From Fidelibacterota bacterium SCGC AAA003-L08 (lineage in GTDB: Bacteria > Fidelibacterota > Marinisomatia > SCGC-AAA003-L08 > D37C17), in NCBI GenBank assembly GCA_000405805.1, contig ASPJ01000001.1, forward strand, positions 36,591-100,590: DNA of 64,000 bases. The letters are read 5' to 3'. Positions within the stretch are counted from its first letter, which is position 1. The number at the start of each line of letters is the position of its first letter. Both the position numbers and the translations under genes were made by a program. The notes under the pieces are model-generated. The model was not told the origin of the DNA, did no database searches, and saw only the letters and a program-made list of their open reading frames with translations. Shown piece after piece: positions 6,542 to 56,066 of the stretch.

Positions 6542-8251
6542 ATGATTATGAAAAGGGTATTATTATTTTTAATGGTTTTATGTTCTAGTTTATTTTCTTC
6601 TACAGATTTTACTGAGGAAGAAAAAAGAGAATTAGGGAATCAAGCAATGCATCAGATGATGCAAAAAATTTGGACTGAAGCAATGGAAGCAAAATCAGCA
6701 TATAATAATGGCGTTTTTAATACACGTGAAGAATATCTTGAGAATGTATGTTCAACAGCTCCAGTAGCTCCTCCAGGTGTTTTTCACATTCATGCAGATG
6801 TTTCAAGTGAATTAGCAGCTGGAGATCCATCAGCATCAGTTTATATATCATGGGATGGCCAAGATAGTTGGTCTAATTATGTTGCCAGTCCTTTGGATCC
6901 TGAACTTGTGGGCCCTGGATATGAAAATACATGGGGACTAGAAACACCTAGCATAGGGACTTCTGCTGATTGGTATTTAGCAGGGACAGTTAATTCCGAA
7001 GCCCTTGGGTATGATTATGGCACTATTTTATTGAGTGGTTCCCCGCATAATGCAGATCAAATAGGTGTTCCATTGCCCCCAAATTTGTATGGATTATTAG
7101 CTGAAGATGAAAGTGGAGATGCATCGTCTGCTCAAGATATATTAAATATTAAAGGAAGTTACTATGATGATGGAGGTACTTTGGAAGATGGGTCTGGGGA
7201 TGGTGCTGAAAGATTTTATATGTCTATGGAAATTAATGGTGGTTGTTGTGATGAAGGAGGACTTTTTGGTCCTTGGTATCTTTATGGTGTAGGTATTGTA
7301 AACCCAGATTCAGAAACTCCAGTTGCATATGCTATTGGTTATGGAGATGGTGGTTTTGGTCAATTATTACCTGGGTTATTAAAAATTACAGGGGATCTTT
7401 CAACAGGAGAAATTGATGGATTTGATTATATAACAACAGATATTAACTATAATACTAACGGTGATTTTATGCAAGCTACGACATTAATGTCGTATATTAC
7501 AAATGATGCAGATTGGGGCGACTGGCCAAATTCTGTATATGGTTTTATTGCTTTAGGAGTTACTGTAGAAGCATCTTTAGATGGGTTAGATGTAGCTGCA
7601 GATATTAAAGATGAGACTTCACCGGGGTTATTTATTATGAATTCTATACATCAAGTTGGGAATAATGTTTTTGAGTTGGATGATTTATCATTTGATTCTG
7701 ATAATATGATATTATCTACAACATATAGTGATGAAGATGGTAATCTACCATGGTTTAAATCAATACAAATATGTGAAAATGTAGGAGGATTTTGTTATTT
7801 CCAGGAAGTTCCTATTCCAGATAGCCATACATATGAAGATGGCGTTATTTTTTCTGCTGATGTTACTAAATATATAACAGGATATTGTGCTTCTAATATT
7901 TTTGGAGAAGATGATTTGGATTTTGATAATGAAGAATCATGTACAGCTGCTGATGGAACGTGGTATGCTCCTATCCCAGATGGAGAATATGTAGCAAAGT
8001 TCGCATTTGCTGATGGAGAATATAATCCTAATGATGTTGAATATTTAGATATTACTATAGGTGAAGGTGGAACGGGATGTGCCTTGGTAGGAGACGTTAA
8101 TGAAGATGACACATTAAATATATTAGATGTAGTATTACTAGTGAACCTTATATTAAGCGGAAGTGATGCTGAGTGTGGTGATGCGAATGGAGATGATACA
8201 ACTAATATATTAGATGTAGTATTATTGGTAAATATTATCCTTGCTGGATAA
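6542..8251 (+). CDS. secreted acidic protein of unknown function with C-terminal dockerin-like module
   Basis: 569 aa with signal peptide MIMKRVLLFLMVLCSSLFSS. The body is D/G/E-rich with no motif I recognise. The C-terminus is GDVNEDDTLNILDVVLLVNLILSG...GDANGDDTTNILDVVLLVNIILAG. Confidence 0.6.
   Translation: MIMKRVLLFLMVLCSSLFSSTDFTEEEKRELGNQAMHQMMQKIWTEAMEAKSAYNNGVFNTREEYLENVCSTAPVAPPGVFHIHADVSSELAAGDPSASVYISWDGQDSWSNYVASPLDPELVGPGYENTWGLETPSIGTSADWYLAGTVNSEALGYDYGTILLSGSPHNADQIGVPLPPNLYGLLAEDESGDASSAQDILNIKGSYYDDGGTLEDGSGDGAERFYMSMEINGGCCDEGGLFGPWYLYGVGIVNPDSETPVAYAIGYGDGGFGQLLPGLLKITGDLSTGEIDGFDYITTDINYNTNGDFMQATTLMSYITNDADWGDWPNSVYGFIALGVTVEASLDGLDVAADIKDETSPGLFIMNSIHQVGNNVFELDDLSFDSDNMILSTTYSDEDGNLPWFKSIQICENVGGFCYFQEVPIPDSHTYEDGVIFSADVTKYITGYCASNIFGEDDLDFDNEESCTAADGTWYAPIPDGEYVAKFAFADGEYNPNDVEYLDITIGEGGTGCALVGDVNEDDTLNILDVVLLVNLILSGSDAECGDANGDDTTNILDVVLLVNIILAG
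8090..8248 (+). repeat. dockerin-like duplicated Ca-loop/helix module (copy 1 of 7 in window)
   Basis: The two segments are GDVNEDDTLNILDVVLLVNLIL and GDANGDDTTNILDVVLLVNIIL. The two halves are also similar at the DNA level (aatatattagatgtagtattaYtRgtRaaY). Confidence 0.75.
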
Positions 8252-8277
8252 GCATTGCATAATATCTTAATATAATT

Positions 8278-8312
8278 AAAAAGCCTCTTTATTAATTAAA
8301 GAGGCTTTTTTT
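8278..8312. terminator. bidirectional rho-independent terminator between convergent genes
   Basis: Stem aaagcctcttt (8280-8290) pairs with aaagaggcttt (8298-8308) around a 7-nt loop. An A-run lies on the left and a T-run (8306-8312) on the right. Confidence 0.8.
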
Positions 8313-8336
8313 ATATATGTATTGTTTTACAATTAA

Positions 8337-10504: not shown

Positions 10505-10535
10505 TGTTAATGCTCTCCTAAGCCAACTTAATTAT

Positions 10536-11225: not shown

Positions 11226-11228
11226 TTT

Positions 11229-12041: not shown

Positions 12042-12051
12042 ACTTTCTCTC

Positions 12052-13383: not shown

Positions 13384-13396
13384 TTTTTAAATATAA

Positions 13397-15506: not shown

Positions 15507-15510
15507 CCTA

Positions 15511-28742: not shown

Positions 28743-29882
28743 CTACCTATATAAATTCATTTTTTCAGCATATATACGAGTTGTCTTTTCTAATATTGTA
28801 GGAGCCCCTTGATAGTTATGAGACCCAAAATATATATTAGTTTTGATTAATGCATGCCAAATAAAGAATATTAAGATTAGACCGTTTAAAGTATATTTTA
28901 ATATTTTTAGGTTAATTTTATTATTTATAATAATAAATGAACAAATTATTGCAATTCCATATGCTAAAAAATCACCAATACCATATAGATTGGTAATTGA
29001 ATTTGCAAAAACAAATATTAACAGTAAATATATCCAATCTAAATGTCTAATAGACTTAAAATAATCGTGCTTATTATTTATTTCACTTATTTTATCCTTA
29101 GTAGGCAAGTAATCTGTTAAAGATACTTTTTCTTTTAAAGGATTTGCATAAGAATAAGAAAGAGCGCTACTAGGACAGCCTGAAATACACATCATACAAG
29201 AAGTACAGTTTGTATTAGTTACTTTCTTAAAATTATTAATTTCATAATTCACATCAATACCTACTGGGCATGATGCAGTGCAATTATGACAATTGGTACA
29301 AGTACCTGTTTTACGAACTTTAAATAATGCTAAAGAATTAGGTATTTTTAAAAAAGCGCCCCAGGGACAAATAAAACGGCAAAATCCTTTTCTTCCAAGA
29401 AAATATATTATTAAAAATCCATCTACTATAAAAGTTAATGTACCAATTATATAACCAGGCAGGAATTCCCATATGTTAGGTTCATTTATTTTTACGGACA
29501 TTTCCCAGGGGAGATTAATTGCAAAAAATAAATTATTAATAATATATAGGTGTAATAATATAAATAAAGGTAAAAAAGTAACTAGTTTTGAGTCTATGGT
29601 TTTGGGTTGGATATTCATTTTTTTTAAAGCTAACCAAGCTAATTCTTGAATTGCTCCAAAGTGACATGCCCATCCACAAAAAAAACGGCCAAAAATCAAT
29701 GTAAAAACAAATGAAATAATCACTAATAATACTCCAGCATTAATTTTTCCAAGTTTGAGGAATGAGTGAAAAAATTCTTGAAAATCGACACTTCCAATTT
29801 TACTATCACCCCAATAGAATATATGAAGTAATATTAATATATGGATAAGGATTAAAGAGGCAATTCTAAATCTTTGTATCAT
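28743..29882 (-). CDS. polytopic membrane polyferredoxin (NapH/FixG-like 4Fe-4S binding protein)
   Basis: 379 aa with multiple TM helices. Motifs: CGWACHFGAIQE, CRFICPWGAFL, and two ferredoxin motifs (CTNCHNCTASCP and CTSCMMCISGCP). The start overlaps the stop of the upstream FG-GAP gene. Confidence 0.7.
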   Translation of the reverse strand: MIQRFRIASLILIHILILLHIFYWGDSKIGSVDFQEFFHSFLKLGKINAGVLLVIISFVFTLIFGRFFCGWACHFGAIQELAWLALKKMNIQPKTIDSKLVTFLPLFILLHLYIINNLFFAINLPWEMSVKINEPNIWEFLPGYIIGTLTFIVDGFLIIYFLGRKGFCRFICPWGAFLKIPNSLALFKVRKTGTCTNCHNCTASCPVGIDVNYEINNFKKVTNTNCTSCMMCISGCPSSALSYSYANPLKEKVSLTDYLPTKDKISEINNKHDYFKSIRHLDWIYLLLIFVFANSITNLYGIGDFLAYGIAIICSFIIINNKINLKILKYTLNGLILIFFIWHALIKTNIYFGSHNYQGAPTILEKTTRIYAEKMNLYR

Positions 29883-32263
29883 TAGTGGATTAGAATGAAT
29901 TCTACTAATTTAGTTAAATCCAGAACATCAAGTTCAGTTGAATAATCTAAATCTCCAGCCCAGAATTGTTTTTCATCAAAATCATAATAATTAGATAAAA
30001 TTTCATGAATTATCTGAACAACATCAACGATATTTACACTTTCATCAATATTTACATCACCTTTCATACCAACAAAGCCAATATTTTCCACTATTTTATA
30101 ACTTTGATTTAAATCAATAAAGCCAGATAAATAATCTATTTTTGGTTGATTAGTTAAAGTATCCATACTTGGCCATTTTATTATAATATTTTCTATAAAA
30201 CTACTCTCCCCAAGTCCAAAATGTAATTGCAACGGGTCCATGCTTCCATGCCCTTTACCAGCGATAACTTCTCTAAAATATGTTCCCATATCTGTTTCAA
30301 TAATTACTTTTGCTCCTATAGCAGATTTATTTGAATTTTCACTCCAACCTAAGTTAGATATTCCATATTGAGCACCTTCTAAATCAATTTTTAGCCAGGT
30401 GTTATTGTTCACCAAGGAATCTTGTGAAATATTTTCAAATAACAAGCTTGTATATTTATAACCTTGTGAATCAGGACCATGTCCATGGGCCATTAGTAAT
30501 CCAGGTGTAAACATATCCAATAGTCCATCATTATTATAATCTGCAGCAACTACATCTTGAGTTGCAGACATAAATAAAGGATTAAATGAATTATCCCAAA
30601 GATTATCTCCATTATTTAAATATATATCATCCTCGCGCTTAAAATTTGCTGCCCATAAATCAATTAAGCCATCATTATTAAAATCACCCCATCCAGCACC
30701 ATTACTTAGAGAATCTGATTCTATATTATATATATCAGCAACATTTATAAATTGGCCATCATCATTTCTGTATAATCTATTTTTACCCCAATTAGATAAA
30801 TATAAATCAAAATCTGAATCATTATCATAATCTCCCCATGCAGCACCATAGCCAGTACTTCCCTCGATTTCAATGGCACTATCATCTAAAGCTAGTTCTG
30901 AAGATTTTTGGATAAACATATTTTCGCCAAGATTTTCCTGATAAGTAACAGTTCCTGATTCTAGTGTAAGATGCTGATTTTCAAATAGCCAATTACCGCT
31001 GGGGTCATTATCACAATCATCTGGATCATCCATATCAGAGTTACATCCTTTTCTAGGAATGAATACATCTTGATCACCATCACCATCATAATCAGCAATA
31101 GCAAGAGTTCTAGATGAGCTATCATCATCATCACGACTAAATTCATAAGCTAATTCAAAAATGGGGGTTCCCTCATCATCTAATCCTTGATTTATATAAC
31201 AATAGAATTGACGATCTCCTGCTTTTTCTATTGCAATAATATCTAAATCTCCATCTAAATCAACATCCATTAAACCCTGACTATGTAAATCGTCCATTAA
31301 ATCTTCATCTAAATATTCAACAGTATCAAAATGATGATTTCCAAAGTTTAATAAAAGTCGATGATTACTTGTTTCATAATATCTCCATTTTAATATATCG
31401 GGGTATCCATTATTATCAACATCCCCCACTACAATTCCTTTCATCCCAGATTCATTAATATCTACTTCATCAGTTAATTCATAAAAATGATCGCCCCTAT
31501 TTTCAAAATAATGGGATTGAGTATATCCATAATACAAATCTAGATCTCCATCTAAATCAAAATCTGCAAATGTTCCCCCTTTAGCTTTCATTCGGGAGTA
31601 ATCACTGTTTATTGGGTGAACAAATGCACTAAATAATCCGCTAGACATATCTTGAGGGTCAACAATAATTTCATACTCTTCAGTTAAATCTGATGGAGGA
31701 AAAGTAATATCATCTAACCAAGCACAATCATCATCATCAGTTACACTACCATCTTTTACATAAGACCAACTTATAGTATGAACCCCTTCATCTAAAGGAT
31801 AGTAAATATATTTCCAGTCCCCACTAGAATCTTCAAATTCAGCTAATAGTTCACCATCTACAAAAAATTCCAAACCATCATAAAAACAATCATCTGGAGC
31901 AGAAGAAGAGCAATCTTCTGCATCGACTTTATAATAAAACTCTAATGGACCGGATTCATATACATCAATAGTAATATTAACGGTACTTGACTGATCATCC
32001 TCTATATCTCCTGAACGGATGCTATAAATTCCTGAATACACTTCATCGGAATCAAGTTCCCAATCGGAATCGCCAGTCAATTCAAAGTGAGCTTCATCTA
32101 ATTCATTATCCTCAAAGCTTATATATGATTGTCCCTCAGGAATAATATCCCTCAAATTACTATTGGTAACTAGGAAAAAAACTTGTGAAGATAGATTCCC
32201 AATTATTAATAGAAATAAAATAAACATAAATAAACGTAGATATTTGATTTTAAACCATTTCAT
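29882..32263 (-). CDS. secreted FG-GAP/VCBS-repeat protein with ASPIC/UnbV-like domain (CRTAC1-like) and C-terminal dockerin-like module
   Basis: 793 aa with a signal peptide. It has repeated Ca-binding FG-GAP loops (FDLDGDLDLY, GDVDNNGYPDIL, ADYDGDGDQDVF, GDYDNDSDFDLY, GDFNNDGLIDLW, ADYNNDGLLDMF). The UnbV-like segment is SAIGAKVIIETDMGTYFREVIAGKGHGSMDPLQLHFGLG. Confidence 0.75.
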   Translation of the reverse strand: MKWFKIKYLRLFMFILFLLIIGNLSSQVFFLVTNSNLRDIIPEGQSYISFEDNELDEAHFELTGDSDWELDSDEVYSGIYSIRSGDIEDDQSSTVNITIDVYESGPLEFYYKVDAEDCSSSAPDDCFYDGLEFFVDGELLAEFEDSSGDWKYIYYPLDEGVHTISWSYVKDGSVTDDDDCAWLDDITFPPSDLTEEYEIIVDPQDMSSGLFSAFVHPINSDYSRMKAKGGTFADFDLDGDLDLYYGYTQSHYFENRGDHFYELTDEVDINESGMKGIVVGDVDNNGYPDILKWRYYETSNHRLLLNFGNHHFDTVEYLDEDLMDDLHSQGLMDVDLDGDLDIIAIEKAGDRQFYCYINQGLDDEGTPIFELAYEFSRDDDDSSSRTLAIADYDGDGDQDVFIPRKGCNSDMDDPDDCDNDPSGNWLFENQHLTLESGTVTYQENLGENMFIQKSSELALDDSAIEIEGSTGYGAAWGDYDNDSDFDLYLSNWGKNRLYRNDDGQFINVADIYNIESDSLSNGAGWGDFNNDGLIDLWAANFKREDDIYLNNGDNLWDNSFNPLFMSATQDVVAADYNNDGLLDMFTPGLLMAHGHGPDSQGYKYTSLLFENISQDSLVNNNTWLKIDLEGAQYGISNLGWSENSNKSAIGAKVIIETDMGTYFREVIAGKGHGSMDPLQLHFGLGESSFIENIIIKWPSMDTLTNQPKIDYLSGFIDLNQSYKIVENIGFVGMKGDVNIDESVNIVDVVQIIHEILSNYYDFDEKQFWAGDLDYSTELDVLDLTKLVEFILIH
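29885..30061 (-). repeat. dockerin-like module (divergent copy, 2 of 7)
   Basis: The two segments are GDVNIDESVNIVDVVQIIHEIL and GDLDYSTELDVLDLTKLVEFIL. Confidence 0.6.
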
Positions 32264-37748: not shown

Positions 37749-39320
37749 ATGAAAAAATTAATTCAAACAACAAAATATTTTATTACTACATGTATGATAT
37801 TCTCATTTGCTCAAGCGCAGTGGTCTTCTGACCCTGCATCTCCACAGTTATTAGGCAGTGGTGTTCAGGCACAAGTTAAGGCTACCTCTGATGGAGGTGT
37901 ATATGTTGCATGGCTTACTGACATGGGTGATTATCATGTGTATCTGCAACGATTTGACGCAATGGGAGTAGCACAATTCGATGATGGCGGCATGTTAGTG
38001 AGTGATAACTCGAATGCATCATGGATTGCTGTTTTTCATATGAATCTTGATGTAGATAGTGATGATAATGCAATTATTACCGTTTTAGATGAGAGGTCAG
38101 GACCATGGAATGTATATGCTTATAAGATTTCATCAAGCGGTTCTATGCTATGGGGAGATGATGGAATATCAGTTTCGAATTCCAATCAGACGAATTATTC
38201 TCCTCGATTAGCAATCTTACCAGATAATAGTGCTGTGGTTGCATGGTCTCCTAATTCAACTACTGTTGAAATTCAAAGGATTTCTGCTGGTGGTGAATTG
38301 ATGTGGGGCGGTGGCATTCTTATTCAAGATAATAATGAATCTCTGATGTCCCCTCAACCAATTGTTGATTCAAATGGTAATGTACTGGTTCAATGGATTG
38401 GACAATCAGGACCATTCTGGGCTGCTGATAGTAAATTATATTTGCAGAAGTATGATCTTGATGGAAATGCTCAGTGGAACAACCCAGCGTTGGCAGGTGG
38501 ACCAGTTGTATTCCCTATGGGAAACTGGTCACAAGGATTAATTAGAGATGATAATGGTGGCAGTTTTTCTTCATGGACAAAAATGTCAGGGAATGTACAA
38601 TCTTCTTTTACTCAACATATCAATACTGATGGAGAGTTATCTTGGACTAATGGAGTTGAATTTTCTAGTAATTCCAGTAGTTTTCGGATGTCACCTCGTT
38701 TAGCTGTTTCTGAAGATTCTCAGGAATTGATGGCGGTATGGAATCAATCAAATAGTAGTCAATCTCAGGGTGGTGTATATGCGCAGCGCTTAGATGAAAA
38801 TGGTGATCGTCTTTGGAGTTCTTCTGGCATGGCAGTAGTTCCTTTGAACAGTAATTATGATTATTTAGATCTCTCCGTTGCAGGATTTGGAGATGATATA
38901 ATTACGGCTTATATTCAACAAAGTGTAAACATGTCTGGTGATATTTATGCTTCTTATCTTAATTCAGATGGTGAGCATGCTTGGTCAGAGCCGGTAACTT
39001 TGACAACCTCTGGAAATGCAAAATCAGACATGTCTACTGGTAAGGGACAAGAATGTCTTTTTATTGCTTGGACTGAAAATGGCAATGTTTATGCACACTC
39101 TCTAAGAGTTGATGGCACACTAGGAGCAGCAGATTCTTTTATTCCGGGGGATGTTAATGGCGATGAACTAATAAATGTAATAGATATAGTTGCACTGGTT
39201 TCTTTTATTCTTCAAACAGATATTCCTTCAGACTCCGAATATCTTGCCGGAGATTTTAATGGAGATGGTAATTTAAATGTTTTGGATATCGTTGATATTA
39301 TTGCGTTAATCTTAAGCTAA
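37749..39320 (+). CDS. secreted repeat (beta-propeller-like) protein of unknown function with C-terminal dockerin-like module
   Basis: 523 aa with signal peptide ...CMIFSFAQA. A periodic ~55-60 aa unit ends in G-x-x-x-W (GSMLWGDDGISV, GELMWGGGILI, GNAQWNNPALAG, GELSWTNGVEF, GDRLWSSSGMAV, GEHAWSEPVTL). Confidence 0.6.
   Translation: MKKLIQTTKYFITTCMIFSFAQAQWSSDPASPQLLGSGVQAQVKATSDGGVYVAWLTDMGDYHVYLQRFDAMGVAQFDDGGMLVSDNSNASWIAVFHMNLDVDSDDNAIITVLDERSGPWNVYAYKISSSGSMLWGDDGISVSNSNQTNYSPRLAILPDNSAVVAWSPNSTTVEIQRISAGGELMWGGGILIQDNNESLMSPQPIVDSNGNVLVQWIGQSGPFWAADSKLYLQKYDLDGNAQWNNPALAGGPVVFPMGNWSQGLIRDDNGGSFSSWTKMSGNVQSSFTQHINTDGELSWTNGVEFSSNSSSFRMSPRLAVSEDSQELMAVWNQSNSSQSQGGVYAQRLDENGDRLWSSSGMAVVPLNSNYDYLDLSVAGFGDDIITAYIQQSVNMSGDIYASYLNSDGEHAWSEPVTLTTSGNAKSDMSTGKGQECLFIAWTENGNVYAHSLRVDGTLGAADSFIPGDVNGDELINVIDIVALVSFILQTDIPSDSEYLAGDFNGDGNLNVLDIVDIIALILS
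39147..39317 (+). repeat. dockerin-like module (3 of 7)
   Basis: The two segments are GDVNGDELINVIDIVALVSFIL and GDFNGDGNLNVLDIVDIIALIL. Confidence 0.75.
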
Positions 39321-39350: not shown

Positions 39351-41606
39351 ATGTCAAAAATTTATATCAGTTTATTTTTAATAACTAGCTTGCTGTTTTC
39401 AGTAGAACTAGTTGTAGAGCCTTATCTCCAAAATGCCACCCCAAATTCAATGCATGTATTATGGGAAACTGATTCAAATTCACAGAGTGTTGTTGAATGG
39501 GGATTATATGTTTTTTTATCAGAGTCTACTACAGGCTCATCATTTAGTAATTATGGAAGTTCACGTATCCATACGGTGGAACTTACAGATTTAGAACCGA
39601 ATACGCAATACTACTATAGGGTTGTGGTTGGGAATTATGAAAGTTACTCAGATTTATATAGTTTTATTACCCCACCGGACCCTTCATCAGAAGCAGATTT
39701 TCGTATAGTAGCGATGAGTGACATGCAAAGAGATAGTTCAAACCCAAATAAATTCAATGAGGTAATTCATGATGGAGTGATTGATTACATTTCTGAAGAG
39801 TATAGCGATAATTTAGAAGCAGAACTTGCCATGGTACTGGTTACCGGAGATCTTGTTGTTACTGGAACATCTTACTATCAGTGGCAGGATCATTTTTTTG
39901 GTCCATCAGAAGATTTATTTTCTCATGTCCCATTATATCCAGTATTTGGAAATCATGAGCAAAATACTGATTATTTTACAAACTACTTTCATCTTCCAGA
40001 TAATGGAACTCCAGGGTATGAAGAACATTGGTATTATACTGATTATTCTAATTTACGAGTGATTGGTCTTGATTCTAATGGGGGGTATCAGGTTCAGGTT
40101 CAGCTTGATTGGCTTGAAGAAGTTCTATCAGATGCATGTTCTAACGATTACATTGATTTTGTTTTTGCACATCTCCATCACCCTTATAAATCAGAGTTAT
40201 GGACTCCTGGTGAGAGCAACTATACGGGAGATGTAATTGAACGTATGGAAAATTTTACAGATCAATGTGGGAAACCAAGTATTCATTTCTTTGGGCACAC
40301 ACATGGTTATTCTAGGGGACAATCTAAAGATCATGATCATCTATGGGTGAATGTTGCCACTGCTGGAGGTGCAATTGATTACTGGGGAGAATGGCCTCAG
40401 GTAGATTATGATGAATTCACGGTTACCCAAGATGAATGGGGTTTTGTTCTGGTAGATGTTCAAGCTGGAGATAATCCAAAATTTACGCTTCAAAGAATCA
40501 GTCGAGGGAATGAATATCAATTCAGAGATAATGAATTGCGTGACGAAGTAATTATTCGTTTAAATAATTCTATTCCAGATCAACCAACAGGACTATTCCC
40601 AGAAGGACAAGAAGATCCCGATTTTCTTATACTAAGCGCAAGTGATTTCTCAGATGAAGATGGTGATCAGCCAATGGCAGCAGAATGGTCTATCTATGAT
40701 GAAGACTGCAATTTATTTTCAGAACCAGTTATAAATGAATTCATTAATATGAATAATTGGTATTATTATGAAAATACACAAGAATCTATGGAGCTTACAG
40801 AATTATCAATTACAGCAGGATTAAGCGCAAACAGTTCTTACTGCTGGGCTGTTAGATATAGAGATACCAGTCTTGGATGGAGTGAATGGTCTGATCCTCT
40901 TTCATTTACAACTGGAGAATCACAGTATTCTGAAAACCTGCTGTTTAATCCAGGGGCTGAATCAGGGGTAGAAGACTGGATTACTACGGAGGGATATATG
41001 GAATCTCTTGGAGAGTATGTATGTGATGGAATCCAGCCACATAGTGGTGATTATTATTTTATAGTAGGAGCATTATGTAATACAGCTACCTATGCAGAAG
41101 CATATCAAGAAATTAATATATCTGAATATGAAGATTGCATCAATGATGAGCTAGCCTATGTAAACTATGGGGGCTATCTATCTGACTGGGGAGGAAGTGA
41201 TCATCCAGAACTAACGGTTGCTTTTATTGATGAAAATGGAGATGAAATTGATAGACCTGAAACTATGGGTACATATAATTCATTTTGGACATTATTTTCA
41301 AATGATTATCTAATTCCTGTAGGTACACATTCAGTTCAAATGATTTTAATGGGAACTCGATATGCTGGAGATGATAATGATAGTTATTTTGATGATTTAT
41401 TTTTACGAATTTTTCAAGATCAAGACTGTTTAGGTACTTTAGGAGACCTAAACCAGGATGATACAATTAATGTTTTAGATGTCATATTATTAGCTAATTT
41501 AATTTTAGATGGAGTTAATAATTCTAATTTGGGAGATATGAACAATGATAATCAAATTAATATTTTAGATGTGATTATTCTTGTAAATATTATTTTAAAT
41601 CCTTAA
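39351..41606 (+). CDS. secreted purple-acid-phosphatase-like metallophosphoesterase with extra C-terminal domains and dockerin-like module
   Basis: 751 aa with a signal peptide. It has an N-terminal PAP/FN3-like domain (EPYLQNATPNSMHVLWETD...LEPNTQYYYRV). The metallophosphoesterase motifs are RIVAMSDMQ, VTGDLV, FGNHE, AHLHHP and GHTHGY. Confidence 0.75.
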   Translation: MSKIYISLFLITSLLFSVELVVEPYLQNATPNSMHVLWETDSNSQSVVEWGLYVFLSESTTGSSFSNYGSSRIHTVELTDLEPNTQYYYRVVVGNYESYSDLYSFITPPDPSSEADFRIVAMSDMQRDSSNPNKFNEVIHDGVIDYISEEYSDNLEAELAMVLVTGDLVVTGTSYYQWQDHFFGPSEDLFSHVPLYPVFGNHEQNTDYFTNYFHLPDNGTPGYEEHWYYTDYSNLRVIGLDSNGGYQVQVQLDWLEEVLSDACSNDYIDFVFAHLHHPYKSELWTPGESNYTGDVIERMENFTDQCGKPSIHFFGHTHGYSRGQSKDHDHLWVNVATAGGAIDYWGEWPQVDYDEFTVTQDEWGFVLVDVQAGDNPKFTLQRISRGNEYQFRDNELRDEVIIRLNNSIPDQPTGLFPEGQEDPDFLILSASDFSDEDGDQPMAAEWSIYDEDCNLFSEPVINEFINMNNWYYYENTQESMELTELSITAGLSANSSYCWAVRYRDTSLGWSEWSDPLSFTTGESQYSENLLFNPGAESGVEDWITTEGYMESLGEYVCDGIQPHSGDYYFIVGALCNTATYAEAYQEINISEYEDCINDELAYVNYGGYLSDWGGSDHPELTVAFIDENGDEIDRPETMGTYNSFWTLFSNDYLIPVGTHSVQMILMGTRYAGDDNDSYFDDLFLRIFQDQDCLGTLGDLNQDDTINVLDVILLANLILDGVNNSNLGDMNNDNQINILDVIILVNIILNP
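41442..41603 (+). repeat. dockerin-like module (4 of 7)
   Basis: The two segments are GDLNQDDTINVLDVILLANLIL and GDMNNDNQINILDVIILVNIIL. Confidence 0.75.
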
Positions 41607-49058: not shown

Positions 49059-49152
49059 TGATACAATTTAATAATAATAAGGGCAACAGAGAATTAATTA
49101 ATAAATGATTTGTAGGATTTTTCTATTAGTTAATAAATTAGAGGCATGTTAT

Positions 49153-49224: not shown

Positions 49225-49225
49225 C

Positions 49226-49259
49226 AATTAACCCCCATACACTGGGGGTTAATTATTTT
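49226..49259 (+). terminator. rho-independent terminator after tRNA-Glu
   Basis: A perfect 12-bp stem, aattaaccccca (49226-49237) with tgggggttaatt (49243-49254), encloses loop tacac and is followed by atttt. Confidence 0.8.
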
Positions 49260-49330
49260 CATGTATTTAATTCAGTCTGTAACACATTGTAATTCTTTTC
49301 ATAAAAGTTGATATTTTTATTATAAATTAG

Positions 49331-51256
49331 ATGGTTATGAGAGTATTATTTATATACATATTAATAATGTCATTTTCTTATGCAGATTTGAATAAACCGA
49401 GCTCTGAAGAGAACTTAAGATATATACATATTTTATTTGAATGGGACCAAGAGCCCAATGCAATTAGCTATAATTTGCAAGCCTCAACAGGGCAATCATT
49501 TAATAATATAATCTTAAATATTGAAGAATTAACGACATCCTATATTGATACAGAAAATTTTAGTTGGAATGATAACTATTACTGGAGAGTACGACCAATG
49601 TATAGTGATGGAAACGATGGTGCTTGGATTGAAACATCATCTTTTTCTATAGAAGATACTCAGCTAACTAACTTAGATGTAGATATATACAATGAAGATC
49701 TTATCCAAGATGGAGTAATGATGTATAGTCAATTTTCTCCATTTTTTGCAGTAGGGGTCATTGATAAGTTTGGTAATGAAATTTGGAATACTTCTACAGG
49801 TTATATGAACCATATCAGTGATTATGGAGAACTATATGGAGTAAATGAAGAAGGTATTAAATTTAATTTTGACCATGAAGTATTATGGCAAAGTCCACAA
49901 GGGACTCCAATAGATTCTCATGAGGTAAAACAAATACCAAATGGTAATTTCATGGCGTTTGTTCCTACATTTCAACAAGGGCCAATACCACTAGGTGATT
50001 GGACTGGTTTAGCCCAAAGTTTTGGATATCAAGCTGATGGTGTTACGGATGAATTTTGGTGGATGGGCTTACGGATTGTTGAATTTGACAAGGAAACGAG
50101 TGAAGAAGTCTGGAGTTGGGAACCCTTTGAACATTTTAACATGGATGATTATGACCAATATGGAGGAATGTGGTGGGAAGCAATATTTAATGGAGTATTT
50201 GATTGGATGCATACCAATGCTTTTCACTTTGATGAAGAGGAAAGTGTTATTTATGTATCTCATCGTCATTTATCAAGAATTAGCAAGATAGCATATCCAT
50301 CAGGAGAAGTAATATGGAATATGGGATTACCTGCAGAATATGGTACGGGCGATGATAATATCTGTACGGATTTACTTTTTAGTTTTCAACATCATATCCA
50401 ATTAATGGATGATGGGACATTACTATTTTTTGATAATGGGAATATAAGTAATGTTATTACAGATGATGAAACACCAATAACACGTATTCGAAGGATTCAA
50501 GTCATTGATGATAGCTACTGTGAAACTGTTTGGCAATATGACCTACCACCAAACCTTCATGGTTTGGGGATGGGTAGCGTTCAATTATTAGAAAATGAAA
50601 ATTATTTTATTTACACTTTTGGCAGTGGACTTAATAATGGAGAATGTAGTGTTCTTGAAATAACTCCTGATGGAGATATGGTATGGAAAGCAACATCGCA
50701 AAATTCAAATGCTGCATGGTACAGATCATATAAAATACCTTCAATACATCCAAGTGCATTTAGCGTGGTTGCTGATGGATATACCATAAATGAAGATAAT
50801 AGTGATATTATTGAGATGTCCAGCAATTCTCTAGAGTTTACTATATATAATAAAAGTGGTTTTACTCAACCCTATCTTTATCAATTGTCTGATTTAACTG
50901 ATGGTGGACCTCAGATGTTTAATTATGAAGAAGGAGAAATTACTTTAGAACCAGATGAAAGTATAAATCTATCTTTCTTAACAGCAAGTTCAAGCCTTGA
51001 ATCGACTACTATTAGTTTATCTGTTTGGCCAACACATCATAGCTATGCTGCTAAAGAACTGATGTTTTCTGTTATTTCTGTGGTAGAGTCTGGAGATATC
51101 AATGGTGATGATACTATCAATGTGTTAGATGTTGTTCTACTTGTAAATATGATTTTAGATTCAACGGAGTTTTCAAGTACTGCTGATTTAAATGGAGACA
51201 ATGTTGTAAATGTTCTTGATGTGGTATTACTTGTTAATCTTATCTTAGGGACTTAG
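49331..51256 (+). CDS. secreted arylsulfotransferase (ASST)-like beta-propeller protein with C-terminal dockerin-like module
   Basis: 641 aa with a signal peptide. An N-terminal FN3-like segment (YNLQAS...YYWRVRP) is followed by ASST-like motifs: DSHEVKQIPNGNFMAF, DWMHTNAFHFDEEESVIYVSHRHLSRISKI, and FSFQHHIQLMDDGTLLFFDNGN. Confidence 0.55.
   Translation: MVMRVLFIYILIMSFSYADLNKPSSEENLRYIHILFEWDQEPNAISYNLQASTGQSFNNIILNIEELTTSYIDTENFSWNDNYYWRVRPMYSDGNDGAWIETSSFSIEDTQLTNLDVDIYNEDLIQDGVMMYSQFSPFFAVGVIDKFGNEIWNTSTGYMNHISDYGELYGVNEEGIKFNFDHEVLWQSPQGTPIDSHEVKQIPNGNFMAFVPTFQQGPIPLGDWTGLAQSFGYQADGVTDEFWWMGLRIVEFDKETSEEVWSWEPFEHFNMDDYDQYGGMWWEAIFNGVFDWMHTNAFHFDEEESVIYVSHRHLSRISKIAYPSGEVIWNMGLPAEYGTGDDNICTDLLFSFQHHIQLMDDGTLLFFDNGNISNVITDDETPITRIRRIQVIDDSYCETVWQYDLPPNLHGLGMGSVQLLENENYFIYTFGSGLNNGECSVLEITPDGDMVWKATSQNSNAAWYRSYKIPSIHPSAFSVVADGYTINEDNSDIIEMSSNSLEFTIYNKSGFTQPYLYQLSDLTDGGPQMFNYEEGEITLEPDESINLSFLTASSSLESTTISLSVWPTHHSYAAKELMFSVISVVESGDINGDDTINVLDVVLLVNMILDSTEFSSTADLNGDNVVNVLDVVLLVNLILGT
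51092..51253 (+). repeat. dockerin-like module (5 of 7)
   Basis: The two segments are GDINGDDTINVLDVVLLVNMIL and ADLNGDNVVNVLDVVLLVNLIL. Confidence 0.75.
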
Positions 51257-51261
51257 CTAAT

Positions 51262-52554
51262 ATGAAACGATTATTATTTATATTTCTTTTATCACATATA
51301 TTTTCACAATATAATATCGAAAATGCATTTCCGAATCTATCGTTTGAGGATCCAGTAGGAATATATCATGCCAATGATGGAACTAATCGATTGTTTGTAG
51401 TCGAACAGGAAGGGCGAATAAAAGTATTTGATAATAGTCCATCAGTAAATAATGCAGATATGTTTTTAGACATTACATCCCTTGTTGATCAAGATGGTGG
51501 ATATACAGAAGAAGGATTATTAGGGTTAGCTTTTCATCCTGATTTTGAAGAAAATGGATATTTCTATGTAAACTATACTGAACATGGACCTAGAAGAAAT
51601 GTAATAGCAAGATATATGGTGAGTGATACAGACCCAAATGAAGCAAATTATAGTTCATCAGAGATTATATTAGAAGTTAACCAGCCATATACAAATCATA
51701 ATGGTGGGCAAATATCATTTGGACCAGATGATGGGTACTTATATATTACTTTTGGAGATGGTGGATCAGCGGGAGATCCTCAAGGGAATGGGCAGAATCT
51801 ATCAACTCTATTGGGCTCACTTATTCGTATTGATATTGATAATCCCTCTGGCGGATTAAATTATGGGATACCTTCTGATAATCCGTTTATTGCTCCACTA
51901 GCTGCGCGAGATGAAATCTATGCGTATGGATTACGTAATATGTGGAGATTTAGTTGGGATTTAGAAACAGGATTTTTATGGGGTGCTGATGTAGGACAAT
52001 ATGAATATGAAGAAATTAATATTATAGAAACCGCTGGGAATTATGGTTGGAATATTATGGAAGGAACTAGCTGTTATGATAGTCCTAGCTGTGATGAAGA
52101 AGGATTAGAACCACCAATTTGGGAATATGAATTATATGTTGATGGAGTATGTTCTATAACAGGGGGGCATGTTTATAGAGGCCCAAGTTTATGGAGTTTA
52201 ACTGGAAAATATATTTATGGTGATTGGTGCACAGGAGATATATGGGCGCTTACTTATTCAGAGGATGGCGCCCACACTAATGAACATTTGATAACATCTG
52301 GAATTAATATTACTTCTTTTGGAGTAAGTCAAGATAATGAATTATTTATTTGTGCAAATAGCAGCATATATAAATTAACATCTGATTTAGGAGATGTTAA
52401 TGGTGATGATGAGTTAAATGTTTTAGATATTGTATCACTTGTAAATATCATACTATCTAATGGTTATACAGAATCAGCAGATTTAAATTCAGATAATATT
52501 ATTAATATTTTAGATGTAGTTTTATTAGTCAATGCTATTTTGGGTTCTAATTAA
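51262..52554 (+). CDS. secreted PQQ-dependent soluble sugar (glucose/sorbosone) dehydrogenase-like protein with C-terminal dockerin-like module
   Basis: 430 aa with a signal peptide. Motifs: RLFVVEQEGRIKVF, EEGLLGLAFHPDFEENGYFYVNYT, HNGGQISFGPDDGYLYITFGDGGSAGDP, YAYGLRNMWRFSWD, and DVGQYEYEEIN. Confidence 0.8.
   Translation: MKRLLFIFLLSHIFSQYNIENAFPNLSFEDPVGIYHANDGTNRLFVVEQEGRIKVFDNSPSVNNADMFLDITSLVDQDGGYTEEGLLGLAFHPDFEENGYFYVNYTEHGPRRNVIARYMVSDTDPNEANYSSSEIILEVNQPYTNHNGGQISFGPDDGYLYITFGDGGSAGDPQGNGQNLSTLLGSLIRIDIDNPSGGLNYGIPSDNPFIAPLAARDEIYAYGLRNMWRFSWDLETGFLWGADVGQYEYEEINIIETAGNYGWNIMEGTSCYDSPSCDEEGLEPPIWEYELYVDGVCSITGGHVYRGPSLWSLTGKYIYGDWCTGDIWALTYSEDGAHTNEHLITSGINITSFGVSQDNELFICANSSIYKLTSDLGDVNGDDELNVLDIVSLVNIILSNGYTESADLNSDNIINILDVVLLVNAILGSN
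52390..52551 (+). repeat. dockerin-like module (6 of 7)
   Basis: The two segments are GDVNGDDELNVLDIVSLVNIIL and ADLNSDNIINILDVVLLVNAIL. Confidence 0.75.
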
Positions 52555-52578
52555 TTCTTAATTTTCCTATTATAAATC

Positions 52579-54396: not shown

Positions 54397-54425
54397 ATTA
54401 TAAGAAGAAGGGGGGGCATGTTTAT

Positions 54426-54641
54426 ATGAAAGCAGCAAAAACAGCAACATTGTTAGGACTTATTGGAGTTAGCTTAGTATTCTTCAGTGATTTTATTACA
54501 TTTTTTAGAGTCTTGGAACATGCAAAGGTATTATCTATTTGCATGGGTATTCTTAATCTTACTGGACTTGGATTATTATTAACATTCTTTATAAAGATGT
54601 TTATCTATTACAGCAGACGATTATCCAATAGCAATCAATAA
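54426..54641 (+). CDS. small two-TM membrane protein, unknown function
   Basis: 71 aa with two hydrophobic helices (ATLLGLIGVSLVFFSDFITFF and ICMGILNLTGLGLLLTFFIKMFIY). Confidence 0.35.
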   Translation: MKAAKTATLLGLIGVSLVFFSDFITFFRVLEHAKVLSICMGILNLTGLGLLLTFFIKMFIYYSRRLSNSNQ

Positions 54642-54680
54642 AAATTATATTTAATGTTAGTTATTGGGAATTTATGATTT

Positions 54681-56066
54681 TTGATGATTAGAATTATGAA
54701 GAATTTTTTCACATATTATTTATTTTTAATTATTGGATTAAGTAGTTATCTACTTGGGCAGATGCTTCCTTATGAAGAACCATCGTTGATTCAAAATAGA
54801 TATAGCGGACACATTCCAACACGTTCAATTTCAGCAGATAATATTAATCAAGCATTGGATATTGATATTATTAACAATGGAAGTTTAGATAGGGTTAATA
54901 ATAATACTCATATATTTTATACATTGAATTTATCTGAGGATAATATTTATGATTTATCATTTGATTATCAAAATATACCAATGGGTAGCAAACTATTTAT
55001 CATTGAAGAAAATAAATTTTTAGGACCATTATTATTATCTGGTACAGATAATTTAGTTCAAAGAGTATCTGGTAGAGATTTAACATTAGAAATTATTTTT
55101 CCATCAAATCATATTGGTAATCCGAAATTTAAATTAGCAAAAATATCATTCAAAGACAAAGAAACAGCAAACATTAAAAATGATTTTTTAATTAATAAAA
55201 GTAATCGTGAACCAGTGATACTAGTTACCGGTTTTTGGCCTCCCACCAATGAAATGATAAGACATTTCAGCCAGAATATATTTTTAAATGGAAACTGGGA
55301 AGGTGAAAACTGGCAAGATAGAGGATATAATATTATATCCTATTTTCCAGAATTCACAAATCCAGATTGTGATAATTGTGGACAAGGATATGGGGATTTA
55401 GAAGTTGATTATCAAGATACCTCCGTAGATTTCTGGGATATTGTAGAGGAACACTCCCCAGTTGCAATTATTACATTTAGCAGGGGATACATAAATTACA
55501 GCTGGGAGCTTGAATTTAATTTTTATAATAGGACCAATTGGTATCCAGATTATTCAACCCCTACTCTTCCAACTCCAAATCCTCCAGATGATAGTGTGGA
55601 ATCATATTACCTAAGGAACTCAACACTCCCAATGGATAATATTATGAATGAAGTTAATGCAGCAGACCTTGGATTGGATTCTTATATAGATGCTACTGGA
55701 GACCCAGGTCATTTTGTTTCAGAGTTTATGGGCTATCATGGTGTATGGTATCATGATATTAATATTGAGTCCTGTTATGTTGCAGGGCATATTCATGTGG
55801 GTGGATTAATTGATTGGGATACAGCTAGAGAGGCAACCGAGATTTCAATTTTAAAGACTATTGATTATTTAGATCAGTTTTCCTATACTGAAGGTGATGT
55901 AAATGCAGATGGTACTATTGATATATTAGATTTAGTTATTGTTGTCAATGTTATTTTAGGATCAGAAGAACTTAGTTTAATTGAAAGCTATGCTGCAGAT
56001 ATGAATCTGGATGGTGTAATTAATATCCAAGACATCATTTTGATTATAAACTTAATATTAAATTAA
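54681..56066 (+). CDS. secreted protein with possible pyroglutamyl-peptidase (C15)-like fold and C-terminal dockerin-like module
   Basis: 461 aa with a signal/anchor sequence. By-eye similarity to Pcp: PVILVTGFWPP (compare LLTGFDPFGG), SWELEFN (Glu position), GDPGHFVSEFMGY (compare AGTFVCNHLFY, with Ser replacing Cys), and AGHIHVG (compare GFIHIP). This is a weak call from memory alignment only. Confidence 0.4.
   Translation: MMIRIMKNFFTYYLFLIIGLSSYLLGQMLPYEEPSLIQNRYSGHIPTRSISADNINQALDIDIINNGSLDRVNNNTHIFYTLNLSEDNIYDLSFDYQNIPMGSKLFIIEENKFLGPLLLSGTDNLVQRVSGRDLTLEIIFPSNHIGNPKFKLAKISFKDKETANIKNDFLINKSNREPVILVTGFWPPTNEMIRHFSQNIFLNGNWEGENWQDRGYNIISYFPEFTNPDCDNCGQGYGDLEVDYQDTSVDFWDIVEEHSPVAIITFSRGYINYSWELEFNFYNRTNWYPDYSTPTLPTPNPPDDSVESYYLRNSTLPMDNIMNEVNAADLGLDSYIDATGDPGHFVSEFMGYHGVWYHDINIESCYVAGHIHVGGLIDWDTAREATEISILKTIDYLDQFSYTEGDVNADGTIDILDLVIVVNVILGSEELSLIESYAADMNLDGVINIQDIILIINLILN
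55893..56063 (+). repeat. dockerin-like module (7 of 7)
   Basis: The two segments are GDVNADGTIDILDLVIVVNVIL and ADMNLDGVINIQDIILIINLIL. Confidence 0.75.

What the first reader, a model, noticed from the sequence alone, without database searches (positions are those of the whole stretch)
6542..56066. Seven unrelated exoproteins share a C-terminal duplicated dockerin-like module; no cohesin partner visible
Seen: seven ORFs with N-terminal signal peptides end in the same 53-59 aa module. Module coordinates are 8090-8248, 29885-30061 (minus strand), 39147-39317, 41442-41603, 51092-51253, 52390-52551 and 55893-56063.

Each module has two copies of G/A-D-[VILM]-N-x-D-x-x-[ILV]-[ND]-[IV]-[LIQ]-D-[VIL]-[VI]-x-[LI]-[VI]-N-x-I-L joined by an 8-14 residue linker. 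This is the duplicated Ca-binding loop plus helix pattern of type I dockerins.

The passenger domains are diverse and not obviously carbohydrate-active:
- PQQ sugar dehydrogenase
- purple-acid-phosphatase-like phosphoesterase
- ASST-like propeller
- FG-GAP/ASPIC protein
- a W-repeat propeller
- a C15-like fold
- an acidic protein of unknown function

That is 7 of about 55 genes in this window. Dockerins outside cellulosomes are known to exist, but their partners are mostly unknown.

Inference: this organism uses the module as a general tag, either for cell-surface display on an unidentified cohesin-like anchor or as a sorting signal.
Basis: partly seen in the sequence, partly recalled or inferred. 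Interest (0 to 1): 0.7.

Follow-up and report, generated by a model that had tools for sequence, protein, structure and literature searches.

The report
Dockerin-tagged secreted proteins in SAR406
Seven unrelated secreted enzymes of an abundant ocean bacterium (Marinimicrobia/SAR406) all end in a genuine dockerin, a small calcium-binding plug known from cellulose-degrading complexes, so this bacterium probably clips much of its secreted enzyme set onto an anchor that is not encoded in this window.

Summary
Exactly seven ORFs in the window end in a 53-59 aa duplicated module. All seven have signal peptides and are strongly acidic. The module is a genuine type I dockerin: Pfam Dockerin_1 scores 5 of 7 above threshold, a module profile hits only dockerins in the PDB, and an AlphaFold model (pLDDT 94) superposes on solved dockerins at about 1 Å.

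The organism is a low-GC Candidatus Neomarinimicrobiota (SAR406). In close relatives, 56 of 137 ORFs of at least 250 aa around the same locus carry the tag, so it is a lineage-wide default tag and not a chance cluster. No cohesin is encoded in the window.

In relatives, dockerins sit upstream of true T9SS sorting domains in the same protein, which argues against the dockerin being the secretion signal. I found a Pfam-invisible ~100-aa β-sandwich module whose best structural matches are cohesins. It occurs in lipoproteins and in giant T9SS-anchored multi-copy proteins, one of them in a Marinimicrobia relative. A canonical cohesin occurs in one related marine contig. Neither is shown to bind these dockerins.

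Similar non-cellulosomal systems are already proposed for Cloacimonadota and Planctomycetes. This is a new variant of a known kind, of moderate interest.

The parts
6542..8251 (+). Gene p1: signal peptide + acidic passenger of unknown family (569 aa) + C-terminal dockerin (module 8090-8248)
   Evidence: ORF. Dockerin_1 23.4 bits against GA 22.9. Clade HMM E 2e-21. PDB sequence hits are to the dockerin only. Signal peptide and D+E/K+R of 96/14.
29882..32263 (-). Gene p2: signal peptide + FG-GAP repeats + ASPIC/UnbV domain (793 aa) + C-terminal dockerin with a degenerate second repeat (module 29885-30061)
   Evidence: FG-GAP_3 6e-27 and UnbV_ASPIC 3e-13; Pfam misses the dockerin, but the clade HMM gives E 3e-25. 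The second repeat shares only 4 of 22 residues with the first. The gene overlaps by 1 nt the start of a downstream polyferredoxin membrane gene at 28743-29882.
37749..39320 (+). Gene p3: signal peptide + passenger of unknown family (523 aa) + C-terminal dockerin (module 39147-39317)
   Evidence: Dockerin_1 34.4 bits. PDB hits are dockerins only. The module also weakly matches the C-terminus of NCBIfam NF045500 Omp28_seleno.
39351..41606 (+). Gene p4: signal peptide + purple-acid-phosphatase N-domain + calcineurin-like metallophosphoesterase (751 aa) + C-terminal dockerin (module 41442-41603)
   Evidence: Pur_ac_phosph_N 7e-17 and Metallophos 4e-11. Dockerin_1 scores 21.5 bits, just under GA 22.9. 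Clade HMM E 1e-19.
49331..51256 (+). Gene p5: signal peptide + arylsulfotransferase (ASST)-like propeller (641 aa) + C-terminal dockerin (module 51092-51253)
   Evidence: Arylsulfotrans 5e-18 and Dockerin_1 34.2 bits. The orthologue in L024 is 70% identical and keeps the dockerin.
51262..52554 (+). Gene p6: signal peptide + PQQ-type glucose/sorbosone dehydrogenase (430 aa) + C-terminal dockerin (module 52390-52551)
   Evidence: GSDH 4e-46 and Dockerin_1 27.3 bits. There are 7,991 homologues; the top 120 are all about 430 aa and at least 70% identical, from ocean metagenomes, and many are annotated PF00404+PF07995.
54681..56066 (+). Gene p7: signal peptide + passenger of unknown family (461 aa) + C-terminal dockerin (module 55893-56063)
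   Evidence: Dockerin_1 44.6 bits, the best of the seven. This sequence was the first row of the alignment used for the AF2 model. The L024 orthologue is 76% identical and keeps the dockerin. In relative L001/L051 the syntenic slot after bipA is occupied by the scaffoldin-like gene.

Best explanation
The seven modules are bona fide type I dockerins: two Ca2+-binding F-hand loops, each followed by a helix. In this low-GC Marinimicrobia (SAR406) clade they serve as the standard C-terminal tag of soluble, acidic, Sec-exported proteins of many kinds (redox enzyme, phosphatase, sulfotransferase-like, FG-GAP/ASPIC, unknowns; in relatives also C25 and S8 peptidases, CotH/LTD, HmuY, GH18). The most likely mechanism is the one known for dockerins. 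After export, the tag binds non-covalently and Ca2+-dependently to a common receptor module on a cell-envelope-anchored protein, so the enzymes stay attached to the cell instead of diffusing away. The receptor is not encoded in this window. By analogy with FCB-group relatives it is expected to be a cohesin or cohesin-like β-sandwich held on the cell by a T9SS C-terminal domain or a lipid anchor. Shown: the identity and fold of the tag, its C-terminal position, its abundance in the clade, and its independence from T9SS sorting domains. Inferred: the binding itself, the receptor's identity, the surface location, and how the tagged proteins cross the outer membrane.
For: Dockerin identity: Pfam, a PDB profile search hitting 27 dockerins and nothing else, and an AF2 model at pLDDT 93.8 with Foldseek TM 0.85-0.91 and rmsd about 1 Å to dockerins solved in cohesin complexes. 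The Ca-ligand positions D1, N3, D5, N/D9 and D12 are conserved at roughly 80-100% over 81 unique clade modules. The helix positions that contact cohesin in type I dockerins (10/11 = [VI][LQ], 17/18 = [VI]N) are near-uniform in both repeats, as expected for many proteins sharing one partner in a dual-binding mode. General tag: 7 of 45 window ORFs; 56 of 137 ORFs of at least 250 aa in 15 related loci. The signal-peptide proteins without the tag are membrane, porin or TonB-like proteins or M16 peptidases. Orthologues retain the tag. The modules are anciently diverged at 53-70% nucleotide identity. Not a T9SS signal: L001/L051, the L054 C25 peptidase, L058, L063, P0273, P0332 and P0345 all carry an internal dockerin plus a separate terminal Por_Secre_tail/TIGR04183 domain. 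Anchors exist in relatives: the L001/L051 Marinimicrobia protein has 3-4 cohesin-like modules + dockerin + T9SS CTD, right next to bipA and dockerin genes. A Pfam Cohesin hit above GA lies in the L058 cluster. Precedent: Ca. Stygibacter (Cloacimonadota) has dockerin-tagged S8, C25 and GH enzymes plus a cohesin scaffoldin with a T9SS CTD (PMC8542988). The 'planctosome' is a second precedent (PMC6461901).
Against: No cohesin or cohesin-like module is encoded in the 64-kb window or in the closest relative's 22-kb locus, L024. The rest of the genome could not be scanned. No binding has been demonstrated or modelled. The tagged proteins have only a Sec signal and no recognisable outer-membrane translocation signal, so their final compartment (surface or periplasm) is unknown. 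Several passengers (GSDH, ASST) are typically periplasmic enzymes in other bacteria (general knowledge). Many genomes are known to have dockerins without cohesins (general knowledge from the non-cellulosomal dockerin literature, cited in PMC8542988 and PMC6461901).
Confidence: 0.6

Rival explanations
1. The dockerin-like tail is a C-terminal secretion or sorting signal. It would be recognised by an outer-membrane translocon or sortase-like system, in the way the T9SS CTD is in other FCB-group bacteria, and would not be a docking module.
For: The module is always at the extreme C-terminus, 0-4 residues from the stop. The lineage belongs to the FCB group, where C-terminal tags direct T9SS export. 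Passengers in relatives (C25 gingipain-like, S8, HmuY, CotH/LTD) are typical T9SS-cargo types. The window proteins show no other outer-membrane export signal.
Against: The fold is an α-helical Ca-binding dockerin, not the β-sandwich of T9SS CTDs. None of the seven hits Por_Secre_tail or TIGR04183. At least seven proteins in relatives carry the dockerin internally plus a genuine terminal CTD, so the dockerin does not replace the CTD there. Classical cellulosomal dockerins are also C-terminal, so position alone does not discriminate.
Confidence: 0.12
2. The tag binds no dedicated protein receptor. It would act as a Ca2+-dependent adhesive or stabilising module that sticks the enzymes to LPS, capsule or particles, or drives self-association. 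This is the 'orphan dockerin' situation seen in many genomes.
For: No cohesin is present in the window or the nearest relative's locus. The helices are unusually hydrophobic (LDVVLLVNIIL), which could favour non-specific or membrane association. Dockerin-only genomes are known (general knowledge).
Against: The strong and symmetric conservation of the putative contact positions across 81 divergent modules points to one shared, specific partner. Relatives encode cohesin and cohesin-like, surface-anchored multi-module proteins alongside the same dockerin type.
Confidence: 0.15
3. The tagged enzymes never leave the periplasm. The dockerin would tether them to a lipoprotein receptor on the periplasmic face of a membrane, concentrating periplasmic enzymes in a tiny streamlined cell.
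For: The proteins have only Sec signal peptides. GSDH- and ASST-type enzymes are periplasmic in model bacteria (general knowledge). The cohesin-like module occurs in many small lipoproteins, and lipoproteins face the periplasm by default in diderm bacteria.
Against: The same module and dockerin types also occur in proteins with T9SS CTDs, which end up on the cell surface. Peptidases, chitinase and CotH/LTD cargo in relatives imply extracellular substrates.
Confidence: 0.1

Closest known systems
Type I dockerins of clostridial cellulosomes (e.g. C. thermocellum CelS 1DAQ, Xyn10B 1OHZ/2CCL)
   Same: Same Pfam family and the same duplicated F-hand + helix architecture. The predicted three-helix fold superposes at about 1 Å. 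Both are C-terminal on signal-peptide proteins, and both show near-symmetric repeats suggesting a dual-binding mode.
   Different: The host is a Gram-negative, free-living oligotrophic marine bacterium. None of the seven cargo proteins is a recognisable carbohydrate-active enzyme. The contact positions are hydrophobic/Asn ([VI][LQ] at 10/11, [VI]N at 17/18) instead of Ser-Thr and Lys-Arg. No scaffoldin is encoded nearby.
Cellulosome-like complex proposed for Ca. Stygibacter (Cloacimonadota), PMC8542988
   Same: It belongs to the FCB group. Signal-peptide enzymes carry C-terminal dockerins, including S8 and gingipain-like C25 peptidases as in the Marinimicrobia loci. Its scaffoldin is anchored through a T9SS C-terminal domain, as in L001, L058 and L063.
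   Different: Stygibacter has a clear 3,755-aa scaffoldin with canonical tandem cohesins and CBMs, and only a handful of tagged polymer-degrading enzymes. Here the tag is on a much larger and functionally broader share of secreted proteins. The only multi-module anchor seen in a Marinimicrobia relative uses a module that Pfam does not recognise as a cohesin.
'Planctosome' proposed for freshwater Planctomycetes (Nemodlikiaceae), PMC6461901
   Same: A non-cellulosomal cohesin-dockerin system in planktonic bacteria, proposed to hold peptidases on the outer membrane. LTD domains are involved there, and LTD-dockerin proteins occur in the Marinimicrobia loci.
   Different: It is in a different phylum, involves few components with canonical cohesins, and has no T9SS. 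It is not a proteome-wide tag.
T9SS type A C-terminal sorting domain (Por_Secre_tail, TIGR04183)
   Same: It occupies the same architectural slot, the C-terminal tag on diverse secreted proteins of FCB-group bacteria, and has similar cargo classes (C25, S8, HmuY-like).
   Different: It is an unrelated fold (β-sandwich versus Ca-binding helices). None of the seven window proteins matches it. In relatives both tags occur in one protein with the dockerin upstream of the CTD.

Membership tests
Type I dockerin (Pfam PF00404 Dockerin_1) | Significant match to the family HMM | tested here: met
   Five of 7 score above the gathering score of 22.9 (23.4-44.6 bits), one scores 21.5 bits, and one is not reported by Pfam. 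A profile of the seven matches 27 PDB sequences, all dockerins, the best being 1DAQ at 9.7e-8.
Type I dockerin (Pfam PF00404 Dockerin_1) | Two tandem ~22-residue segments, each a Ca2+-binding loop (D1, N/D3, D5, N/D9, D12) followed by a helix | tested here: met
   The pattern is present in 13 of 14 segments. The second segment of the 29885-30061 module is degenerate. The ligand positions are conserved at roughly 80-100% in 81 clade modules.
Type I dockerin (Pfam PF00404 Dockerin_1) | Three-helix dockerin fold | tested here: met
   AF2 gives pLDDT 93.8 with helices at 19-29, 37-43 and 53-64. The top 34 Foldseek hits are all dockerins, for example 2ccl_B at TMt 0.90 and rmsd 1.0, and 1ohz_B at 0.91 and 0.9.
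Type I dockerin (Pfam PF00404 Dockerin_1) | Ca2+-dependent high-affinity binding to a cohesin | not testable with these tools
   No complex prediction or experiment was available.
Cellulosome / cohesin-dockerin multi-enzyme complex | A cohesin-bearing scaffoldin encoded by the same organism | tested here: inconclusive
   There is no Pfam Cohesin, marine-cohesin HMM hit or cohesin-like-module HMM hit in the window. Relative L001/L051 has a T9SS-anchored protein with a cohesin-like module. A canonical Cohesin (26.4 bits against GA 24.1) occurs on L058, whose taxonomy is uncertain.
Cellulosome / cohesin-dockerin multi-enzyme complex | Dockerin-borne subunits are mainly plant-cell-wall / carbohydrate-active enzymes | tested here: not met
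   None of the 7 passengers hits a glycoside hydrolase, lyase, esterase or CBM family. Relatives carry peptidases, CotH, HmuY and one GH18.
T9SS C-terminal sorting domain (PF18962 / TIGR04183) | C-terminal ~75-aa β-sandwich matching the CTD models | tested here: not met
   There are no Por_Secre_tail or TIGR04183 hits in the seven proteins. The models do detect true CTDs in L001, L054, L058 and P0251.
Cohesin (PF00963), asked of the ~100-aa 'X' module found in relatives | Sequence match to cohesin HMMs or profiles | tested here: not met
   Pfam reports nothing for the L001 copies at E<=10. One of 38 diverse copies hits Cohesin at E 0.12. The module HMM against the PDB finds no cohesin at E<=10. 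hhalign gives probability 0.1% against CipA Coh2 and 1.5% against a 7-sequence cohesin alignment.
Cohesin (PF00963), asked of the ~100-aa 'X' module found in relatives | Nine-stranded β-sandwich jelly-roll fold | tested here: inconclusive
   In the AF2 model of lipoprotein P0247, residues 67-174 have pLDDT about 90 and nine strands. The top Foldseek hits are cohesins from complexes (6kgf_A, 5n5p, 5nrm_A, 2vn5, 4uyp; probability 0.97-1.0), but TM is only 0.45-0.52 and CBM2 domains score similarly.
Cohesin (PF00963), asked of the ~100-aa 'X' module found in relatives | Binds a dockerin | not testable with these tools
   Only indirect evidence exists: tandem repetition, surface anchors, and co-occurrence with dockerins in the same proteins and loci.

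The most novel reading that the evidence does not exclude
SAR406 and related marine FCB bacteria may run a general 'enzyme display' system. Most soluble secreted proteins would carry a hydrophobic-faced type I dockerin that plugs into a previously unrecognised, Pfam-invisible, compact (~100 aa) cohesin-like receptor module. That family has about 2,490 sequence clusters and is found as single-copy lipoproteins and as T9SS-anchored giants with up to 13 tandem copies, some carrying their own dockerin like adaptor scaffoldins. One of the ocean's most abundant bacterial lineages would thereby keep its exoenzymes cell-bound.
Probability: 0.25. Interest if true: 0.8.

Novelty: new variant of a known kind. 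Interest (0 to 1): 0.58.

Why it matters
Marinimicrobia (SAR406) are among the most abundant uncultured bacteria of the ocean interior. How tiny free-living cells profit from secreted enzymes without losing them to diffusion is a long-standing question in marine carbon cycling. A proteome-wide dockerin tag would give a concrete and testable answer, namely non-covalent tethering to an envelope anchor. It would also extend cohesin-dockerin biology well beyond polysaccharide degradation, to phosphatases, redox enzymes and proteases. The tag is a simple sequence handle for predicting the cell-associated exoproteome of this clade in metagenomes and metaproteomes. I found no open-access paper that mentions dockerins together with Marinimicrobia, SAR406 or Marinisomatota. 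If the cohesin-like module proves to be the receptor, it would define a large new family of protein-docking modules.

Tried and rejected
- **Exact-sequence contig look-ups** for window proteins, meant to extend the genome beyond 64 kb, failed or returned only a 4-kb contig. No genome-wide census was therefore possible.
- **Homology search with the dockerin profile** returned only short metagenome fragments, which say nothing about architectures.
- **The three unassigned passengers and the L001 N-terminus** had no PDB sequence hits other than dockerin or CTD.
- **Single-sequence search for T9SS CTDs** in the loci found only the L001 copy. This method is insensitive.
- **Sequence tests linking the new module to cohesin** were all negative or insignificant, so I do not call it a cohesin.
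- **NCBIfam** has no model for the module.
- **The first metagenome scan**, with the lipoprotein family, found nothing. The second recovered essentially the same gene on a TARA contig.
- **Taxonomic placement of L054, L058 and L061-L063** by comparison with the Marinimicrobia loci was inconclusive.
- **Rejected: a chance cluster.** The HMM statistics and the abundance in relatives rule it out.
- **Rejected: recent copy-paste.** The modules share only 53-70% nucleotide identity.
- **Rejected: the module is a T9SS CTD.** Fold and HMM tests both exclude it.
- **Proximity of dockerin genes to module-bearing genes** is treated as weak evidence, because dockerin genes are so dense in these genomes.

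Full report
**1. The observation**

I built a profile HMM from the seven modules and ran it over every stop-to-stop ORF in all six frames. It recovers exactly these seven (domain E 1e-19 to 3e-25), and the next best hit has E 0.15. Each module ends 0-2 residues before the stop codon of a long ORF.

All seven proteins start with a hydrophobic signal-peptide-like segment. All are strikingly acidic (D+E / K+R from 60/20 to 162/41), whereas neighbouring cytoplasmic proteins are balanced.

Pfam confirms four passengers: GSDH, purple-acid-phosphatase N-domain + metallophosphoesterase, ASST, and FG-GAP + ASPIC.

**2. What the module is**

- Pfam Dockerin_1 scores five of the seven above its gathering score. 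One scores 21.5 against 22.9 bits. It misses the FG-GAP/ASPIC protein, whose second repeat is degenerate (4 of 22 identical to the first, against 10-17 of 22 in the others).
- A profile of the seven matches 27 distinct PDB sequences, all of them dockerins. The best is the C. thermocellum CelS dockerin.
- An AlphaFold2 model from the seven-sequence alignment has mean pLDDT 93.8 and three helices.
- The first 34 Foldseek matches in the PDB are all dockerins. Type I dockerins from cohesin complexes match at TM 0.85-0.91 and rmsd about 1 Å.

The module is therefore a genuine type I dockerin and not a β-sandwich sorting domain.

**3. Organism and abundance**

The window is 31% GC and otherwise encodes ordinary housekeeping genes: sdhA, ppdK, carAB, nadABC, panBC, typA/bipA and pepP. 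Relatives of its BipA are Candidatus Neomarinimicrobiota (SAR406) MAGs, and the closest is 90% identical.

In the 15 closest loci the clade HMM finds 1-9 modules each, up to about 5 per 10 kb. Nearly all lie at the C-terminus. The non-Marinimicrobia loci, and the more distant BipA relatives, have none.

Of 137 ORFs of at least 250 aa in those loci, 56 carry the module. The signal-peptide-like ORFs without it are membrane proteins, porin or TonB-like proteins, or M16 peptidases. These loci are syntenic with only one part of the window; four of the window's seven genes lie outside that part.

Orthologues of the tagged proteins keep the tag. The GSDH-dockerin fusion has thousands of homologues in ocean metagenomes, and the best 120 are all full-length. 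The modules share only 26-66% amino-acid and 53-70% nucleotide identity, so this is an old, maintained feature.

The second refutation criterion, rarity, is thus not met, although the rest of this particular genome could not be read.

**4. Docking tag or sorting signal?**

In relatives the tag ends gingipain-like C25 and S8 peptidases, CotH/LTD proteins, an HmuY-like protein and a GH18. These cargo classes usually carry a T9SS C-terminal domain in Bacteroidota.

The tag is not that domain. None of the seven proteins hits Por_Secre_tail or TIGR04183. Several proteins in relatives carry an internal dockerin followed by a separate, bona fide T9SS domain: L001/L051, the C25 peptidase of L054, L058, L063, P0273, P0332 and P0345. 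This argues against the dockerin being the T9SS signal and places at least some dockerins on the cell surface.

Across 81 unique clade modules the Ca-ligand positions are conserved at roughly 80-100%. The helix positions that contact cohesin in characterised type I dockerins are almost uniform and the same in both repeats: [VI][LQ] at 10/11 and [VI]N at 17/18. That is what one expects if many proteins share one partner.

**5. Search for the partner**

The window has no cohesin by any of three tests:
- Pfam on all 45 ORFs of at least 150 aa.
- An HMM of marine cohesin segments.
- An HMM of the module described next.

In the Marinimicrobia MAG NAT74 (L001), and independently on a TARA contig (L051, 99% identical), the gene directly after bipA sits in the slot occupied in the window by the 54681-56066 gene. 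It encodes, in order:
- a signal peptide;
- three clear copies and one degenerate copy of a ~100-aa module, with Cys-rich linkers;
- an internal dockerin;
- a T9SS type A sorting domain.

Neither Pfam nor NCBIfam recognises the module.

A profile search found small lipoproteins that consist of a lipobox, a Cys-rich linker and one copy of the module. An exhaustive HMMER search found 2,490 representative clusters. These include:
- giants with up to 13 tandem copies ending in T9SS domains;
- many lipoproteins;
- proteins that combine the module with a C-terminal or internal SAR406-type dockerin.

An AF2 model of one lipoprotein gives a confident nine-stranded β domain. Its best Foldseek matches are cohesins from cohesin-dockerin complexes (probability 0.97-1.0). 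However, TM is only 0.45-0.52, and CBM2 domains score about as well.

All sequence-level tests for cohesin homology are negative or insignificant. The cohesin query I used was verified as identical to 1OHZ_A.

The module also occurs between a trypsin-like domain and a dockerin in P0385, which fits a CBM-like or spacer role equally well.

A canonical Pfam Cohesin hit above threshold does occur on L058. That is a 9.9-kb marine contig labelled thaumarchaeal, but it carries three T9SS-domain genes. The cohesin sits in a four-gene cluster with a Dockerin+CTD protein and a module-bearing lipoprotein. The taxonomy of L058, L054 and L061-L063 could not be fixed.

Because dockerin genes are so dense in these genomes, proximity alone is weak evidence.

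**6. Comparison with what is known**

Non-cellulosomal cohesin-dockerin systems have already been proposed for two groups:
- Ca. Stygibacter (Cloacimonadota, FCB group): dockerin-tagged S8, C25 and GH enzymes, plus a cohesin scaffoldin anchored by a T9SS domain (PMC8542988).
- Planktonic Planctomycetes: the 'planctosome' (PMC6461901).

I found no open-access paper that links dockerins with Marinimicrobia, SAR406 or Marinisomatota.

The present case shares the parts and probably the logic of those systems. It differs in lineage and in scale, since the tag appears on a large share of soluble secreted proteins. It also differs in cargo breadth, with no CAZyme among the seven. Finally, the only multi-module anchor seen in a Marinimicrobia relative uses a module that is not a recognisable cohesin.

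**7. Verdict**

The most likely mechanism is Ca-dependent docking of secreted enzymes to an envelope-anchored cohesin or cohesin-like receptor encoded elsewhere in the genome (confidence about 0.6). The rivals are:
- a sorting signal (0.12);
- partner-less adhesion (0.15);
- periplasmic tethering (0.10).

The most novel reading not excluded is that the Pfam-invisible module is a new cohesin-like receptor family (probability about 0.25). I rate the finding a new variant of a known kind, of moderate interest.

Noticed in passing
window 8337-14894 (- strand): A seven-gene operon next to the first dockerin gene. It encodes a lipoprotein (13938-14894), a small secreted protein, a secreted TPR protein, MotA/ExbB-like, MotB(plug)+OmpA-like, a 412-aa secreted protein with no family, and a FliG-like protein with N, M and C domains. 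No other flagellar gene is in the window, so this is a stator/rotor-like set without a flagellum in view.
   Followed up: no
L001:4938-7538; L058:6275-8959; P0242-P0250; many of P0251-P0400: Cys-rich linker units of the type C..(D/E)(A/E)CG(V/I)C(G/N)GDG..C separate the β-sandwich modules. In L058 6275-8959 they form a repeat region of several hundred residues with dozens of cysteines in front of a T9SS domain. Pfam reports nothing for them.
   Followed up: partly
L058 (GCA_013390385.1, JACASV010000043.1): This contig is deposited in a 'Marine Group I thaumarchaeote' MAG. It carries three genes with T9SS Por_Secre_tail domains, a dockerin and a cohesin, so it is almost certainly a mis-binned bacterial (FCB-type) contig.
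   Followed up: partly
L017-L023, L037: BipA genes on long contigs labelled Candidatus Actinomarina / Actinomarinales / Actinomycetota, including two 1-Mb contigs, are 72-74% identical over their full length to the Marinimicrobia BipA. That is far above the roughly 50% seen for other phyla. It suggests either transfer between two streamlined marine lineages or mislabelling.
   Followed up: no
window 28743-29882 (-) and 29882-32263 (-): The FG-GAP/ASPIC-dockerin gene overlaps by one base the start of a membrane polyferredoxin gene (Fer4_5, Fer4_10; NapH/MauN-like), which suggests co-transcription of a secreted ASPIC protein with a redox membrane protein.
   Followed up: no
window 36695-37222 (+): A 175-aa alpha/beta-hydrolase ORF covers only positions 1-102 of the 245-position Abhydrolase_1 profile and is followed by a 527-bp gap before the next gene. 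It may be a truncated gene or pseudogene.
   Followed up: no
window 59599-62018 (-) and 49331-51256 (+): A bifunctional ATP-sulfurylase/APS-kinase (PAPS synthesis) and a cytoplasmic sulfotransferase lie 8 kb from the secreted ASST-like dockerin protein. This may reflect a sulfation/desulfation theme.
   Followed up: no
window 39147-39317; NCBIfam NF045500: The last ~60 positions of the NCBIfam model 'Omp28-related selenoprotein' weakly match the dockerin of the 37749 gene (E 0.003). That curated family therefore apparently ends in the same kind of tag.
   Followed up: no
L063:10001-18790 (P0252): A 2,929-aa T9SS-anchored protein contains seven copies of a 248-aa unit spaced exactly 248 residues apart, with identical HMM scores. 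They are near-identical tandem repeats, each holding one β-sandwich module.
   Followed up: no
window 41616-42743 (+): A Sortilin/Vps10 (BNR-type) repeat protein lies immediately downstream of the phosphatase-dockerin gene. From the called start it has neither a signal peptide nor a dockerin.
   Followed up: no
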